Shown: one piece after another, positions 23,903 through 27,453 of the stretch
Position numbering within the stretch: position 1 is the stretch's first letter
Layout: each line of letters opens with the position of its first letter
Source: a virus
Length of the DNA: 64,000 bases
Direction: 5' to 3' (one strand)
Virus record (IMG/VR): IMGVR_UViG_3300045988_161192
Coordinates: 1 to 64,000 of that record
Position numbers and translations under genes: made by a program
Notes under the pieces: generated by a model
What the model was told of the DNA's origin: nothing
Database searches by the model: none
The model's input: only the letters and a program-made list of their open reading frames with translations

Positions 23903-24151
23903 ATGACAGAAGACCAAGAATACATCAAAGAGCATTTGGGTGAAATTGCTAAGCAAGTGGAAAGTATGCTCCCAGAAGGAAGTGGATTTATTTTGTTTGC
24001 TTTTGACTTTGGAGAAGATAATTCACGAAGAATGCAGTATATTAGCAATGCCAACCGAGAAGATGCTTTCAAAGCCTTAGAGGAATTTATGACTAAGATA
24101 ACAGAAGAAAAATATGGAAAACATTTGGACACAGAAGGAGGTGATAGCTAA
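23903..24151 (+). CDS. hypothetical protein
   Basis: ATG at 23903 after GAGGAGGTGAG. Confidence 0.35.
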   Translation: MTEDQEYIKEHLGEIAKQVESMLPEGSGFILFAFDFGEDNSRRMQYISNANREDAFKALEEFMTKITEEKYGKHLDTEGGDS

Positions 24152-24360
24152 TGTGGTTAGTTTTTCTGATACTTTTAGACCTTTATCTAATTGTCAAAAT
24201 CATTAGAACTTTTCTAGATATTTTAGACTTCTTTGAAATGAAAAAGTCTGCCAGAAAAATGGCTGAAATTTGGAAGGAGAGCATCGATGATAGATGTCAA
24301 TGTTGTGAAGAAGATAAAGCAAAAACTCGACCAACCAGTTACGGGAAGCATGCTCTTTAA
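24151..24360 (+). CDS. small membrane protein (N-terminal TM)
   Basis: MWLVFLILLDLYLIVKII hydrophobic N-terminus; 69 aa. Confidence 0.35.
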   Translation: MWLVFLILLDLYLIVKIIRTFLDILDFFEMKKSARKMAEIWKESIDDRCQCCEEDKAKTRPTSYGKHAL

Positions 24361-24538
24361 ATTTCTAATTTGTTTGAATATTGTAGTATTAGCTTTCTGT
24401 ATAAGAATTGCCAATGTCAGAACCACACAGGATGAGGAAACATTGGAATACATAAACTATTTAGAAGAAATTGTCGAAAAAGACAATGAATATCGTAAAG
24501 TCCTTTGGGACTACATAAATTATTTGAAAGAACATTGA
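24350..24538 (+). CDS. small membrane protein
   Basis: MLFKFLICLNIVVLAFCI TM segment; start uncertain (track start 24287). Confidence 0.3.
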   Translation: MLFKFLICLNIVVLAFCIRIANVRTTQDEETLEYINYLEEIVEKDNEYRKVLWDYINYLKEH

Positions 24539-24560
24539 AAATTTGAAGGGAGAAAGAAAT

Positions 24561-25976
24561 ATGATAACTTTAATTGTAGCAGGAGTAGTTTTATTACTTC
24601 TAATCATATTTGTAGCATTAAGCTACATCAAATGTCCACCAGATATGGTATACTTAATTTCGGGTCTAAAGAAAGAACCCCGAGTTTTAATTGGAAAAGC
24701 TGGAATAAGAATTCCATTCTTTGAAAGAGTAGACAAATTAACTTTGGAACTAATACAAATTGACGTTAAGACTTCAAAAGTTCCAACTGCTGATTTCATA
24801 AATGTTGATGTCGATGCCGTAGCAAATGTCAGAATTCCAAAAGACAACGAGTTGATACAAGTTGCAGCTAGACACTTTCTAAACCAAGACTCTCGTTATA
24901 TTTCAGTCAATGTACAACAAGTATTAGAAGGAAACATGAGAGAAATTATTGGACAATTGGATTTAAAATCACTTGTGAATGACAAACAAAAATTTAGTCA
25001 GAAAATACAAGAAAATGCTAAAGACGACATCAATGCTATTGGACTTGAAATTGTAAACCTAAATGTACAATCTTGTACTGATGAAAACAATGCAATCAAT
25101 GACTTAGGAATTGACAATTTAGCACAAATCCAAAAATCAGCTAAGATTGCAAAAGCCCAAGCTGAAAAAGAAATCAAGATTGCCGAAGCACAAGCTGATG
25201 AAGAGGGTGCAAAAGCTAGAGCAGATGCCGATGCAAAAATAGCTGAACAACAAAAAGAATTGGAAATTAAGAGAGCTGAGTTCAAGATTGAACAAGACAG
25301 AAAGAAAGCCGAAGCAGACACAGTCTATGAAATCCAAAAAGCTCAACAACAAAAATTAGTAAATGAAAACGAAGTAGCAGCTGAAGTAGCTAAAGCAGAA
25401 AAAACTACTGAACTTAAAGAAAAAGAAGTAGCATTGAAAGAAAGAGAATTGGATGCATTGGTTAGAAAACAAGCTGACGCAGACAGATATAAAATGGTCC
25501 AAGAAGCTGAAGCCCAAAAAGAAGCCAGAATCGCTAGAGCTCAAGCTGAAAAAGAGGCTGCAACACTTGAAGCCGAAGCAATCAAAGCAAAAGCTATCGC
25601 TGAAGCTGATGGAATAAAAGCTAAATTGGAAGCAGAAGCAGATGGTATAAAAGCCAAAGGATTGGCCGAAGCTGCTGGTATTGAAAAGAAAGCAGAAGCT
25701 CAAGCTAAAATGAAACAGGCTTCTATTGTGGAAATGATTTGTAAAGTCTTACCAGATATTGCAAAGGAAGTCTCTACTCCACTTGCAAATGTTGATACTA
25801 TCACAATGTATGGTGACCAATCAACCAAGTTAGTAGAAGAAAATACTCAGAAAATAGACAAAGTCTTGAAGGTGGCCCAAGACAGTTTAGGAATAGACTT
25901 GAAATCATTAGTTGCTGGATTTGCTGCTAAGACATTAGTTGACAAATCAGAAAAACCAAAGAAAGCCGATGAATAG
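24561..25976 (+). CDS. SPFH / band-7 (flotillin-like) membrane protein with long Ala/Glu/Lys coiled coil
   Basis: N-terminal TM helix, SPFH-like core (IDVKTSKVPTADFINVDVDAVANVRI...), then ~200 aa of AEAQA/KAEAE heptads as in FloT/YqiK; ATG at 24561 after GAAGGGAGAAAG. Confidence 0.6.
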   Translation: MITLIVAGVVLLLLIIFVALSYIKCPPDMVYLISGLKKEPRVLIGKAGIRIPFFERVDKLTLELIQIDVKTSKVPTADFINVDVDAVANVRIPKDNELIQVAARHFLNQDSRYISVNVQQVLEGNMREIIGQLDLKSLVNDKQKFSQKIQENAKDDINAIGLEIVNLNVQSCTDENNAINDLGIDNLAQIQKSAKIAKAQAEKEIKIAEAQADEEGAKARADADAKIAEQQKELEIKRAEFKIEQDRKKAEADTVYEIQKAQQQKLVNENEVAAEVAKAEKTTELKEKEVALKERELDALVRKQADADRYKMVQEAEAQKEARIARAQAEKEAATLEAEAIKAKAIAEADGIKAKLEAEADGIKAKGLAEAAGIEKKAEAQAKMKQASIVEMICKVLPDIAKEVSTPLANVDTITMYGDQSTKLVEENTQKIDKVLKVAQDSLGIDLKSLVAGFAAKTLVDKSEKPKKADE

Positions 25977-26181
25977 ACACTTTGAGGAATGGTTATTGGA
26001 AGAAGGTTGGTTACAATGTGAAACCTTAAGTGGAGACTGGTGGTATGAAAACACTAGAACTGGTGAAAAACTACCACCTTTCACCCAACCAATTCCAAAA
26101 TACAAAGAACCCGAAAATTGTGGCCACATCAAAATACCTAAGATAGACATCGACCAAGTAAATAAGTATAAAGGAGTGTAA
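25969..26181 (+). CDS. hypothetical protein
   Basis: ATG overlapping the flotillin stop; Trp-rich 70 aa. Confidence 0.3.
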   Translation: MNRHFEEWLLEEGWLQCETLSGDWWYENTRTGEKLPPFTQPIPKYKEPENCGHIKIPKIDIDQVNKYKGV

Positions 26182-26850: not shown

Positions 26851-27453
26851 ATGTTTACCAAGTATGCAAGAGGAATGGTGTATTGGGCAGACATTCCAAG
26901 ATATGAAAACAACCCCAATGTCCAATCTGGTATGAGACCATGCATAATTGTCTCAAACGATATTGGAAATCAATTTAGTAAAGTTGTAACAGTAGTCCCA
27001 TGTACAACTAATACTGACCGAAACCCAGAACAAGTTACTCACATGATACTTAAATTGGGAAGAGACGAAGACAGTTTAGTTCTTTGTGAAAATATAATGA
27101 CTATAAACAAGGATTTACTTAAAGGATTTATGGGTATGTTAGGTGAAGACTTAATCGATGAACTTAACAAAGCATTGTCAGCTACTTTAGGATTAGTTAA
27201 AGTAGCCGAACCAAAGATAAAAATCATCGAAAAGACGAAAGAAGAGAAATTAGAAGAAAAGAAGAAAATGAACCGAGGTCGTAAAGTCTCTGGTCCAACA
27301 GAAATGCAAAAATTTCTGAATTATGCAAAAACACATACTCGAAAAGAAGTGATGGCAGAATATGGAATACCAAGTGAAATGGCTGTCACTCAAAGAACAA
27401 GTTATTATCGAAAAAAGTTGAAAATAAACGATAAAATGGAGGCTGGTCGCTAA
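26851..27453 (+). CDS. MazF/PemK-family endoribonuclease-domain protein with an 80-aa C-terminal extension
   Basis: matches E. coli MazF across the fold: GMVYWADI (cf. GDLIWVDF), RPCIIVSN (cf. RPAVVLSP), VPCTT identical, CENIMTI (cf. ADQVKSI); extra Lys-rich plus HTH-like C-terminus. Confidence 0.7.
   Translation: MFTKYARGMVYWADIPRYENNPNVQSGMRPCIIVSNDIGNQFSKVVTVVPCTTNTDRNPEQVTHMILKLGRDEDSLVLCENIMTINKDLLKGFMGMLGEDLIDELNKALSATLGLVKVAEPKIKIIEKTKEEKLEEKKKMNRGRKVSGPTEMQKFLNYAKTHTRKEVMAEYGIPSEMAVTQRTSYYRKKLKINDKMEAGR

What the first reader, a model, noticed from the sequence alone, without database searches (positions are those of the whole stretch)
24151..25976. SPFH/flotillin-like protein with two small membrane partners inside a phage early region
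The 24561 ORF has an N-terminal TM helix, an SPFH/band-7-like core and ~200 aa of AEAQAKA-type coiled coil, as in bacterial FloT/YqiK. Two tiny single-TM ORFs (24151, 24350) precede it, loosely recalling nfeD-floT operons. Flotillin homologs are unusual in phage genomes. The module could organise membrane microdomains for replication or assembly, or act in superinfection exclusion.
Basis: partly seen in the sequence, partly recalled or inferred. Interest (0 to 1): 0.55.

Follow-up and report, generated by a model that had tools for sequence, protein, structure and literature searches.

The report
Phage-encoded flotillin, conserved across phages
This phage carries a complete, strongly conserved copy of flotillin, a membrane-scaffold protein normally made by cells; the same viral version occurs in several unrelated gut and rumen phages, so viruses appear to use it to reshape the host membrane, though nobody has tested how.

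Summary
Window 24561-25976 (+) encodes a 471-aa true flotillin. It has an N-terminal TM helix, a Band_7/SPFH core (81 bits), about 225 aa of Ala/Glu/Lys-rich helix and a Flot C-terminal domain. It aligns with human flotillin-1 over its whole length (E 1e-53). The window is a ~68-kb phage, and the gene sits in its replication and nucleotide-metabolism block.

New here: every homolog of at least 66% identity that I examined lies on a phage contig, in at least five unrelated genome types (60-200 kb, including T4-like). These form one clade (NJ bootstrap 100). No bacterial flotillin sampled exceeds 52% identity. dN/dS is 0.04-0.2. The gene tree disagrees with the flanking genes, which points to phage-to-phage exchange. 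IMG/VR holds at least 129 flotillin-bearing viral contigs.

The two small TM ORFs are real genes but are not NfeD. ORF A is confined to this one phage lineage. ORF B comes and goes, and one homolog occurs without an adjacent flotillin.

The function is inferred: a membrane-anchored SPFH cage that remodels or maintains the host membrane during infection.

Verdict: a new, undescribed viral branch of a known family. Interest is moderate.

The parts
24561..25976 (+). Flotillin gene (471 aa; an alternative upstream TTG start lies at 24543).
   Evidence: Pfam Band_7 81 bits and Flot 34 bits. Human flotillin-1 at E 1.2e-53 over the full length. Sister phages are 93% identical, and other phage types 66-80%. 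dN/dS 0.04-0.2.
24564..24626 (+). N-terminal transmembrane anchor of the flotillin (residues 2-22).
   Evidence: KD 19-residue mean 3.31. AF2 predicts a helix at 2-22. The sequence varies across the 31 phage homologs but is always hydrophobic.
24693..25169 (+). SPFH / Band_7 core (residues 45-203).
   Evidence: Pfam match coordinates. The region is almost invariant across the 31 phage homologs.
25092..25772 (+). Ala/Glu/Lys-rich coiled-coil wall (residues 178-404). It carries an 18-residue deletion specific to the window sublineage.
   Evidence: 62% A+E+K+Q. AF2 helices at 178-290 and 305-404. The deletion is visible in alignment A2 at columns 326-343.
25632..25811 (+). Flot C-terminal domain match (residues 358-417). 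It includes the conserved PLANVDTITMYGD strand segment.
   Evidence: Pfam PF15975 at 33.9 bits. The segment aligns to the flotillin-1 C-terminal PLTSANKITLVS.
24151..24360 (+). ORF A: 69-aa protein with an N-terminal TM-like helix, immediately upstream of the flotillin.
   Evidence: RBS GGAGGTG. 65% identical in L001-3, with dN/dS 0.12. Small TM ORFs occupy the same position in L009, L050 and L138; the sequence link to L009/L050 is only a weak reciprocal HMM match, E 0.001-0.2 depending on the sequence. Absent from the other flotillin-bearing phage types. No Pfam, PHROG or PADLOC hit.
24287..24538 (+). ORF B: small single-TM protein, 83 aa from ATG 24287 or 62 aa from ATG 24350.
   Evidence: KD 2.42. 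It lies in a ~190-bp segment absent from L001-3. A homolog lies between the ORF A homolog and the flotillin in L050. Only 10 clusters were found in 5.8 billion proteins. The homolog in L139 is not next to a flotillin.
25969..26181 (+). 70-aa Trp-rich soluble ORF. Its ATG overlaps the flotillin stop (ATGAATAG).
   Evidence: Sequence. Homologs lie directly downstream of the flotillin in L009 and L050. It is absent in L001-3. A 48-aa relative lies elsewhere in L040.
23903..24151 (+). 82-aa conserved soluble protein upstream of ORF A (phrog_35296).
   Evidence: PHROG E 5e-6. 76% identical in L001, with dN/dS 0.15. It is also present in relatives that lack flotillin, so it is context and not part of the module.

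Best explanation
The gene encodes a functional, phage-maintained flotillin.

Shown:
- It has every sequence element of cellular flotillins: membrane anchor, SPFH core, long coiled-coil wall and C-terminal Flot segment.
- It belongs to a clade found only on phage contigs, in every case I examined.
- That clade is under strong purifying selection and occurs in several unrelated phage genome types.
- It always sits among early/middle replication and nucleotide-metabolism genes, never in the lysis or virion modules I saw.

Inferred mechanism:
- The protein is made in the infected cell together with the replication genes.
- It inserts into the cytoplasmic membrane by its N-terminal helix, with the bulk of the protein in the cytoplasm.
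- It self-assembles through its coiled coils into the dome- or cage-shaped SPFH oligomer seen for flotillin-1/2, HflK/C and QmcA.
- The cage encloses a membrane patch and so reorganises or stabilises the host membrane for the phage's benefit. That would keep membrane-dependent processes such as energy supply, secretion, wall synthesis and protease control running, or redirect them, until lysis.
- In this reading it is a specialised viral version of a host housekeeping scaffold. Cyanophage psbA is a comparable case of a phage carrying a host function.

The small TM ORFs A and B are lineage-specific neighbours, not NfeD-type partners.
For: Identity:
- Pfam Band_7 and Flot both score above their cut-offs.
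- The full-length alignment to flotillin-1/2 gives E 1e-53 and 1e-44.
- TM hydropathy is 3.31. The predicted secondary structure matches the flotillin layout.

Phage restriction:
- Every examined homolog of at least 66% identity lies in a phage context. These contexts carry Portal_T4, Gp23, gp13, prohead protease, a syntenic siphovirus-like module or an IMG/VR viral call.
- The three GTDB 'MAG' hits of at least 72% are 125-132-kb phage contigs. Identical protein, matching contig length and shared flanking genes link them to the phage locus.
- True bacterial contexts begin at about 50% identity or below.

Clade:
- In the NJ tree, 17 phage sequences are monophyletic with bootstrap 100. Identity is 65-100% within the clade and at most 52% to anything else.
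- The clade is recovered again in an 80-sequence tree.

Selection:
- dN/dS is 0.04-0.2, with dS saturated between lineages.
- It is the best-conserved shared gene between the window and L009 (78% against 39-73%) and L039 (78% against 36-45%).

Spread:
- The flanking genes define at least five unrelated context groups.
- The gene tree cuts across those groups: L012 pairs with L013, L008 with L009, and L017 with groups G4/G5.

Position:
- In the window the order is dCMP deaminase, small ORFs, flotillin, PD-(D/E)XK exonuclease, MazF-like gene.
- In the T4-like phages the order is SpoVG, dUTPase, flotillin.

Cage-forming behaviour of the family comes from the literature: flotillin 44-mer dome (PMC11260169, PMC13000311), and the HflK/C and QmcA-YbbJ cages as summarised in PMC13086221.
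Against: - No experiment or expression data exist for any member, so timing, localisation and oligomer state are all inferred.
- The AF2 model is of low confidence (pLDDT 60), so the fold rests on sequence homology alone.
- The clade's deep divergence from all sampled bacterial flotillins (52% or less) argues against simple replacement of the host protein and for a phage-specific role that I cannot name.
- The hosts are unknown. An unsampled host lineage with a near-identical flotillin cannot be strictly excluded.
- 'Scaffold that reorganises the membrane' is generic and overlaps with the rival explanations.
Confidence: 0.55

Rival explanations
1. Superinfection exclusion or inter-phage competition. 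The phage flotillin, with or without ORF A/B, changes the distribution or activity of membrane receptors or DNA-entry channels so that later phages cannot inject.
For: - It is a membrane-anchored protein encoded in an early region next to small TM proteins.
- In the Vi01-like phage PhiSH19, an SPFH gene lies next to an annotated superinfection exclusion gene (PMC3220722).
- Exchange of the gene among co-occurring phages fits a conflict-related accessory gene.
Against: - Known Sie proteins are small and fast-evolving. This one is a 471-aa protein with a nearly invariant SPFH core and dN/dS below 0.1, which is unlike an arms-race gene.
- It has no PADLOC match.
- I know of no precedent for a flotillin acting in exclusion.
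Confidence: 0.15
2. Protease or quality-control modulator, HflK/C-like. The cage encloses or stabilises a host membrane protease such as FtsH, or shields unfolded membrane proteins. That would control the stability of phage or host proteins, or host division.
For: - Family knowledge: HflK/C cages enclose FtsH. Overproduced B. subtilis flotillin changes division and shape (Mielich-Suss 2013, cited, 35 reference lists). S. aureus FloA stabilises unfolded proteins (Ukleja 2024, as summarised in PMC13086221).
- The T4-like carriers place the flotillin beside a SpoVG homolog, which in Bacillus is a septation/sporulation regulator.
Against: - No protease, FtsH-like or NfeD gene is linked to it in any phage examined.
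- The association with SpoVG occurs in only one context group.
- All of the support is by analogy.
Confidence: 0.13
3. Counter-defence or membrane repair. The cage reinforces the membrane against host abortive-infection effectors that depolarise or perforate it, or against premature holin action.
For: - In the 201-kb T4-like phage the nearest called upstream gene is a Tad8-family anti-defence gene, about 600 bp away. Another carrier encodes a Tad2-like protein 1.6 kb upstream of the flotillin.
- The B. subtilis SPFH protein YdjI/SamI links PspA to the membrane in envelope stress (PMC8581546; bioRxiv 10.64898/2026.02.06.704340).
Against: - Adjacency to anti-defence genes is seen in one lineage only. 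In the window the neighbours are nucleotide-metabolism and recombination genes.
- No PspA/ESCRT-III partner was found among the genes scanned.
- The strong sequence conservation is atypical of counter-defence genes.
Confidence: 0.12
4. A three-part module. ORF A and ORF B are dedicated membrane partners that recruit or regulate the flotillin, analogous to NfeD-SPFH operons or to SamG/SamH recruiting the SPFH protein SamI.
For: - An ORF A-type small TM protein sits directly upstream of the flotillin in every phage of this genome type: window, L001-3, L009, L050 and L138.
- ORF B sits between ORF A and the flotillin in the window and in L050.
- Both are real genes. ORF A has dN/dS 0.12, and ORF B is conserved at 64-99%.
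Against: - Neither has NfeD homology.
- The flotillin has its own TM anchor, so it needs no recruiter.
- Four or more other phage types carry the same flotillin clade without any ORF A or ORF B homolog.
- ORF B is absent in L001-3 and L009. It occurs in L139 with no flotillin in the 1.2 kb of contig downstream.
- Conserved adjacency within one syntenic lineage is expected anyway.
Confidence: 0.1
5. Not a phage function at all: a host gene on mis-assembled or mis-binned DNA, or a decaying passenger.
For: Some carriers are labelled as bacterial MAG contigs in GTDB.
Against: - Identical protein, contig length and shared flanks link those contigs to a phage locus with Portal_T4, TAGT and a clamp loader.
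- The gene is syntenic in independent assemblies from many samples.
- The ORF is intact in all copies and dN/dS is 0.04-0.2.
Confidence: 0.02

Closest known systems
Bacterial flotillins of Bacillota (FloT/YuaG type; E. coli YqiK)
   Same: - Same domain order: N-terminal membrane anchor, SPFH/Band_7, long Ala/Glu-rich coiled coil and the Flot C-terminal domain.
- Similar length, 470-500 aa.
- The nearest bacterial-context relatives are 44-53% identical (Erysipelotrichaceae, Peptostreptococcaceae, Eubacterium yurii).
   Different: - It is encoded by phages and forms its own clade, at most 52% identical to any sampled cellular flotillin.
- It has no nfeD neighbour.
- It is embedded in a replication and nucleotide-metabolism gene block.
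- The window sublineage has an 18-residue shorter coiled coil.
Human flotillin-1/flotillin-2 44-mer dome (PDB 9bq2, 9l3g)
   Same: The sequences are colinear from the first SPFH strand to the C-terminal strand (E 1e-53 and 1e-44). The same cage-forming elements are therefore expected.
   Different: - The human proteins are anchored by acylation and hydrophobic loops and have no TM helix. They form a hetero-oligomer of two paralogs.
- The phage carries one gene with a TM helix.
- The oligomer state of the phage protein is unknown.
Short SPFH 'lipoproteins' annotated in cultured phages (PHROG 200; Kayvirus MbpS; Vi01-like gp200/PhiSH19; Schitoviridae GIB1; Xanthomonas phage X1)
   Same: - They are phage-encoded SPFH-domain membrane proteins of unknown function.
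- The window protein hits phrog_200 at E 2e-10 over its SPFH part.
   Different: - Those are stomatin-like proteins of about 260 aa that lack the flotillin coiled-coil and Flot region (PMC7150955, PMC3220722, PMC10892097, PMC13239085, PMC13384950).
- None is closely related by sequence. tblastn against 50,697 phage records gave only 8 hits, none above 51%.
NfeD-SPFH operons (YuaF-FloT, NfeD-FloA, QmcA-YbbJ) and SamG/SamH/SamI (YdjGHI)
   Same: Small membrane proteins are encoded directly upstream of an SPFH gene on the same strand.
   Different: - ORF A and ORF B have no NfeD domain and are 60-80 aa with one TM.
- They are not co-conserved with the flotillin outside one phage lineage.
- SamI is cytosolic and needs recruiters, whereas this flotillin has its own anchor.

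Membership tests
Flotillin family (Pfam Band_7 + Flot; FloT/YqiK/flotillin-1/2) | SPFH/Band_7 domain scoring above the curated threshold | tested here: met
   PF01145 scores 81.4 bits against a cut-off of 23.6, E 1.1e-22, residues 45-203.
Flotillin family (Pfam Band_7 + Flot; FloT/YqiK/flotillin-1/2) | Flotillin-specific C-terminal domain (PF15975) | tested here: met
   33.9 bits against a cut-off of 27, residues 358-417. All 120 listed homologs carry both domains.
Flotillin family (Pfam Band_7 + Flot; FloT/YqiK/flotillin-1/2) | Full-length colinearity with structurally solved flotillins | tested here: met
   phmmer gives flotillin-1 9bq2_B at E 1.2e-53 (query 22-421 against 2-385) and flotillin-2 at E 1e-44.
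Flotillin family (Pfam Band_7 + Flot; FloT/YqiK/flotillin-1/2) | Membrane anchor at the N-terminus | tested here: met
   KD 3.31 over residues 2-20. AF2 predicts a helix at 2-22. The segment is hydrophobic in all 31 aligned homologs. This is a prediction only.
Flotillin family (Pfam Band_7 + Flot; FloT/YqiK/flotillin-1/2) | Long Ala/Glu-rich coiled-coil region following the SPFH domain | tested here: met
   Predicted helices at 178-290 and 305-404, with 62% A+E+K+Q.
Flotillin family (Pfam Band_7 + Flot; FloT/YqiK/flotillin-1/2) | Assembly into a large ring or dome oligomer and localisation to membrane microdomains | not testable with these tools
   This needs cryo-EM, native PAGE or microscopy. 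The monomer model has only pLDDT 60.
NfeD-SPFH operon | Adjacent gene encodes an NfeD-domain membrane protein | tested here: not met
   ORF A, ORF B and the other neighbours have no Pfam match. No NfeD was found among 10 neighbours of other viral flotillins.
NfeD-SPFH operon | Partner gene co-conserved with the SPFH gene across lineages | tested here: not met
   ORF A is found only in the window-type lineage. ORF B is present in 2 of 4 sublineages and once without a flotillin.
Phage SPFH lipoproteins (PHROG 200) | Match to the PHROG profile over most of its length, and a lipoprotein signal | tested here: inconclusive
   E 2e-10, but only the SPFH part matches (protein 4-234 against profile 83-325 of 379). 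No lipobox is visible around Cys25 (LSYIKC; sequence). The protein has the extra flotillin half.
Known anti-phage defence systems (PADLOC-DB v2) | Match to any defence-system protein model | tested here: not met
   The flotillin, ORF A, ORF B and the adjacent small ORFs have no hit at E <= 0.01.

The most novel reading that the evidence does not exclude
Flotillin cages are a widespread, so far unrecognised tool of tailed phages of Bacillota. The viral protein builds its own membrane compartments in the infected cell. Alternatively it co-assembles with the host flotillin: at 45-50% identity the two are about as similar as I recall flotillin-1 and flotillin-2 being, and those do co-assemble. Either way it would capture or wall off specific host membrane machinery such as FtsH, secretion or wall-synthesis complexes, or membrane-acting defence effectors. 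That would make it a viral organiser of bacterial membrane microdomains.
Probability: 0.15. Interest if true: 0.75.

Novelty: new member of a known kind. Interest (0 to 1): 0.5.

Why it matters
What bacterial flotillins do is still debated, because deletion phenotypes are mild and pleiotropic.

A flotillin that several unrelated phages keep under strong purifying selection and pass among themselves implies a sharp, selectable function during a short infection cycle. That could give a cleaner experimental handle on SPFH cages than cellular mutants have.

It also adds a membrane-scaffold protein to the list of host-like genes that phages carry. Within the searchable literature, nobody appears to have described phage flotillins. 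Only short SPFH 'lipoproteins' have been mentioned in passing in genome papers.

As a practical point, three GTDB 'MAG' contigs carrying this gene, all from species-representative genomes, are in fact phage genomes.

Tried and rejected
- Megablast of the locus against 50,697 phage records found no match.
- PADLOC scan of the flotillin and its neighbours found nothing. The only output was a meaningless KwaB E 0.006 on the MazF-like protein.
- The promoter/terminator scan of 22.5-28.5 kb gave counts equal to shuffled expectation and no terminator on the + strand. I can say nothing about the transcription unit beyond co-directional tight packing.
- AlphaFold2 with a 31-sequence alignment of 73-93% identity to the query gave pLDDT 60 and pTM 0.30. 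I used it only for secondary structure and ran no fold search, because low-confidence models give meaningless matches and sequence homology to solved flotillins was already decisive.
- Biopython bootstrapping timed out. I replaced it with a numpy NJ bootstrap. Deep nodes of the 80-sequence tree are unresolved, so the number of independent acquisitions by phages cannot be stated.
- My first conclusion that ORF B was an orphan insertion was wrong. It was corrected when L050 and a database search showed homologs.
- BLASTP of ORF A against the L009 upstream ORF found no hit. The link rests on position plus weak reciprocal HMM hits, E 0.001-0.2 depending on the sequence.
- I searched for relatives of the window phage that lack flotillin, using the neighbouring exonuclease. 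Twelve phages with ~50%-identical exonucleases lack flotillin, ORF A and ORF B nearby. They are too diverged to show whether ORF A and the flotillin are gained or lost together.
- Six literature searches found no study of a phage-encoded flotillin.
Full report
**1. What is in the window**

The window is most of a ~68-kb phage genome. The source contig is 67,906 bp.
- All major genes are on the + strand and GC is about 35%.
- It encodes a major head protein, neck protein and tape measure.
- A long replication and nucleotide-metabolism block follows: helicase 16817, ATP-dependent DNA ligase 18669, dCMP deaminase 23210, PD-(D/E)XK exonuclease 26185, Sak4-like annealing protein 34509, DNA polymerase 35680, dTMP kinase, MazG-like pyrophosphohydrolase, ThyA-like protein and primase 42335.
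- After that come terminase, portal, two tRNAs and an amidase endolysin.
- No integrase turned up among the ORFs I scanned.
- The finding lies inside the replication block.

**2.

The ORF from ATG 24561 to stop 25976 has an RBS (GAAGGGAG) upstream. An upstream TTG at 24543 is also open. It encodes 471 aa.
- Pfam Band_7 scores 81.4 bits (cut-off 23.6, residues 45-203) and Pfam Flot 33.9 bits (cut-off 27, residues 358-417).
- Against all PDB sequences the best match is human flotillin-1, E 1.2e-53. Query residues 22-421 align colinearly with 2-385. Flotillin-2 follows at E 1e-44.
- Residues 2-20 have a Kyte-Doolittle mean of 3.31.
- Residues 178-404 are 62% Ala+Glu+Lys+Gln and are predicted as two long helices.

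It scores clearly, so that criterion is not met. This is a real flotillin of the FloT/YqiK type.

**3. The homologs are phage genes**

A search of 5.8 billion proteins returned 7,993 hits. The best 120 are all 70-93% identical and carry both domains.

I looked up the genomic context of representatives at each identity level. Every one is on a phage contig.
- The 93% group lies in 63-65-kb contigs syntenic with the window.
- A 78% homolog lies in a 68-kb contig with an SNF2 helicase and an RNA ligase.
- The protein NCBI names 'flotillin family protein [Bacilli bacterium]' (75%) lies on a 132-kb contig with Portal_T4, a clamp loader, a sigma factor, ThyA, dUTPase and two TAGT-family genes.
- 74-77% homologs lie on 88-, 127- and 201-kb T4-like contigs carrying Gp23, gp13, prohead protease S77 and Portal_T4.
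- IMG/VR holds further members at 66-80% on contigs of 25-179 kb.

In one-genome-per-species GTDB, the only hits of at least 72% are three 125-132-kb 'MAG' contigs from goat duodenum and rumen.
- Two of them encode the identical protein and share flanking genes with the phage locus.
- The third shares 4-7 flanking genes with that phage group.
- I therefore read all three as mis-binned phage genomes.

Genuine bacterial contexts appear only at about 50% identity or below.
- An Erysipelotrichaceae contig carries the gene next to FBP aldolase, SelO and PfkB (53% over the N-terminal half).
- The Eubacterium yurii chromosome carries it next to MoaC.
- One metagenome contig carries it next to a two-component system and an ABC transporter (49%).

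In the library clustered at 50% identity, the next full-length representatives are at most 49% identical.

**4. A distinct, constrained, mobile viral clade**

Tree:
- In an NJ tree with 200 bootstraps, the 17 phage sequences form one clade with support 100.
- Its sister is the bacterial-context sequence P0122, with support 86.
- Identity is 65-100% within the clade and at most 52% to anything outside it.
- The clade reappears with support 100 in an 80-sequence tree.

Selection:
- Pairwise Nei-Gojobori dN/dS is 0.04-0.2.
- dS is saturated (about 2) between lineages.
- The high protein identity therefore reflects constraint, not recent transfer.

Relative conservation: the flotillin is the best-conserved gene shared between the window and L009 (78% against 39-73% for eight other genes). 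The same holds for L039 (78% against 36-45%).

Spread:
- Shared flanking genes sort the carriers into at least five unrelated groups.
- The flotillin tree cuts across these groups. L012 (77 kb) pairs with L013 (179 kb), L008 with L009, and L017 with the Gp23-type group.
- This indicates exchange among phages.

Beyond this clade:
- A two-motif scan of IMG/VR found 129 viral contigs encoding flotillin relatives.
- About 60 of the 80 retained are 41-49% identical. They fall into at least eight further clusters on contigs of 50-424 kb.
- Their flanks are co-directional and rich in ORFans, with an RNA ligase, a CCA-adding enzyme and a GyrB-like topoisomerase.
- Deep nodes are unresolved, so I cannot count how many times phages acquired the gene.

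**5. The two small ORFs**

ORF A (24151-24360, 69 aa):
- It has a good RBS and an N-terminal hydrophobic helix (KD 2.15).
- It is 65% identical in the sister phages, with dN/dS 0.12. It is a real gene.
- A small N-terminal-TM ORF occupies the same slot in L009, L050 and L138.
- The L138 copy is clearly homologous by inspection of its translation.
- The link to the L009 and L050 ORFs is weak. BLASTP finds nothing, but HMMs built from either pair retrieve the other pair as the top non-self hits among 3,424 small ORFs, at E 0.001-0.2 depending on the sequence.

ORF B:
- I first took it for an orphan, because it lies in a ~190-bp segment missing from L001-3 and had no hit in the first 39 loci. That was wrong.
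- L050 has a clear homolog between its ORF A homolog and its flotillin.
- The large database holds 10 clusters at 64-99% identity.
- Its start is ambiguous: 24287 (83 aa, RBS GGAAGGAG, 74-nt overlap with ORF A) or 24350 (62 aa). Gene callers have used both.

Partnership with the flotillin:
- Neither ORF matches NfeD or any other Pfam, PHROG or PADLOC family. The only output was a sub-threshold PHROG hit.
- None of 10 neighbours of other viral flotillins is NfeD.
- The other four or more carrier phage types have no ORF A or ORF B homolog.
- ORF B is absent from the flotillin-bearing L001-3 and L009.
- An ORF B homolog in L139 is followed by a different TM ORF and dUTPase, with no flotillin in the 1.2 kb of contig downstream.

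The small ORFs are therefore lineage-specific membrane-protein neighbours. A functional link for ORF A inside this lineage cannot be excluded, but nothing beyond synteny supports it. The nfeD-floT analogy fails its defining test.

**6. How it most likely works**

Shown:
- It is an intact flotillin with every element that builds the SPFH cage in solved relatives.
- It has its own TM anchor.
- It is restricted to phages, as far as examined.
- It is under strong purifying selection.
- It is located among early/middle genes in all carrier types: next to dCMP deaminase and an exonuclease here, and in the order SpoVG, dUTPase, flotillin in T4-like carriers.

Inferred:
- It is made during infection, inserts into the cytoplasmic membrane and oligomerises into a dome that delimits a membrane patch.
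- This maintains or redirects membrane organisation to the phage's advantage.

The depth of divergence from cellular flotillins suggests a specialised viral role and not mere replacement of a host protein during host shut-off. I cannot say which client or process it targets.

The rivals are each supported only by analogy or by a single-lineage neighbourhood hint:
- superinfection exclusion;
- HflK/C-like control of FtsH or protein quality control;
- protection against membrane-acting abortive-infection effectors;
- a dedicated ORF A/B/flotillin module.

Examples of the neighbourhood hints are Tad8 upstream in one T4-like phage and a superinfection exclusion gene next to an SPFH gene in PhiSH19.

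A passenger or artefact explanation is contradicted by synteny across independent assemblies and by dN/dS.

**7. Comparison with what is known**

- Short stomatin-like SPFH 'lipoproteins' have been noted, uncharacterised, in Kayvirus (MbpS), Vi01-like phages, a Schitoviridae phage and a Xanthomonas jumbo phage. The window protein touches their PHROG (phrog_200) only through its SPFH half.
- Among 50,697 deposited phage records, only 8 match. The best is 51% over half the protein, in an unannotated faecal contig. The only annotated match is a crAss-like phage's 'flotillin family protein' at 29.5%.
- Six literature searches found no study of a phage-encoded flotillin. A detailed comparative review of jumbo phages does not mention SPFH proteins.

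**8. Verdict**

- The finding is real, and the identification is secure.
- The protein is a new, viral, member of a well-known family, not a new kind of system.
- What is new is the existence of a conserved flotillin clade that circulates among phages, and the wider presence of flotillins in large metagenomic phages.
- The 'two membrane partners' reading is largely not supported.
- Interest is moderate, at 0.5. The result is mildly surprising to a specialist, and useful because a phage-selected flotillin may expose the function of SPFH cages more sharply than cellular mutants have.

Noticed in passing
window 26851-27453 (+): A 200-aa protein has a PemK/MazF toxin domain (68 bits, residues 7-111) and a ~90-aa C-terminal extension. 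It sits two genes downstream of the flotillin and no antitoxin gene was identified nearby. It is conserved at 84% in the sister phages and matches PHROG 1936, 'MazF-like growth inhibitor'.
   Followed up: partly
window 25533-25534 (flotillin residues 325/326): The window and its 93%-identical relatives lack 18 residues of the second coiled-coil helix that all other members of the phage clade have (alignment A2, columns 326-343). This would shorten the predicted cage wall.
   Followed up: no
L016, L018 (JAFRAK010000039.1, JAFQXM010000001.1) and L017 (CACYRE010000001.1): Three contigs of 125-132 kb from GTDB species-representative genomes are labelled 'MAG: Bacilli bacterium' or 'Erysipelotrichaceae'. 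They appear to be complete T4-like phage genomes binned as bacteria.
   Followed up: partly
L004 2970-7033; L041 7114-8127; L040 8839-9585: The T4-like flotillin carriers encode TAGT-family genes, ThyA or ThyX, dUTPase, dTMP kinase and a GLF-like flavoenzyme. This suggests hypermodified thymidine in their DNA. The window phage has its own set of dCMP deaminase, ThyA-like protein, dTMP kinase and MazG-like protein.
   Followed up: no
L037 9150-9389; L041 8130-8387: Anti-Thoeris-type genes occur in flotillin-bearing phages. A Tad8-family gene lies about 600 bp upstream of the flotillin in the 201-kb phage, and a Tad2-like gene lies between TAGT and ThyA in the 88-kb contig.
   Followed up: no
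L004 7050-7304; L040 9587-9844; L041 9136-9381: A phage-encoded SpoVG homolog lies one or two genes upstream of the flotillin in the Portal_T4 group. In Bacillus, SpoVG is a septation/sporulation regulator.
   Followed up: no
window 25969-26181 (+): A 70-aa Trp-rich ORF has an ATG that overlaps the flotillin stop codon (ATGAATAG), which suggests translational coupling. Homologs follow the flotillin in L009 and L050, and it is missing in L001-3. A 48-aa relative sits elsewhere in a T4-like carrier.
   Followed up: partly
L003 1-175; L037 19813-21470: Relatives contain intein-containing genes. One is an SNF2/ResIII helicase with Intein_splicing and HNH_3 in a sister phage of the window. The other is a 1,436-aa protein with an intein and LAGLIDADG in the 201-kb phage.
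   Followed up: no
window 52590-52842 (+): Two tRNA genes, Pro(TGG) and Met(CAT), lie between the head-assembly genes and a DHH phosphoesterase gene.
   Followed up: no
L139 893-1120: In the one contig where an ORF B homolog is not next to a flotillin, it is followed by a different 75-aa protein with strongly hydrophobic segments (KD 2.64) and then dUTPase. Small membrane proteins seem to be swapped freely at this position.
   Followed up: no
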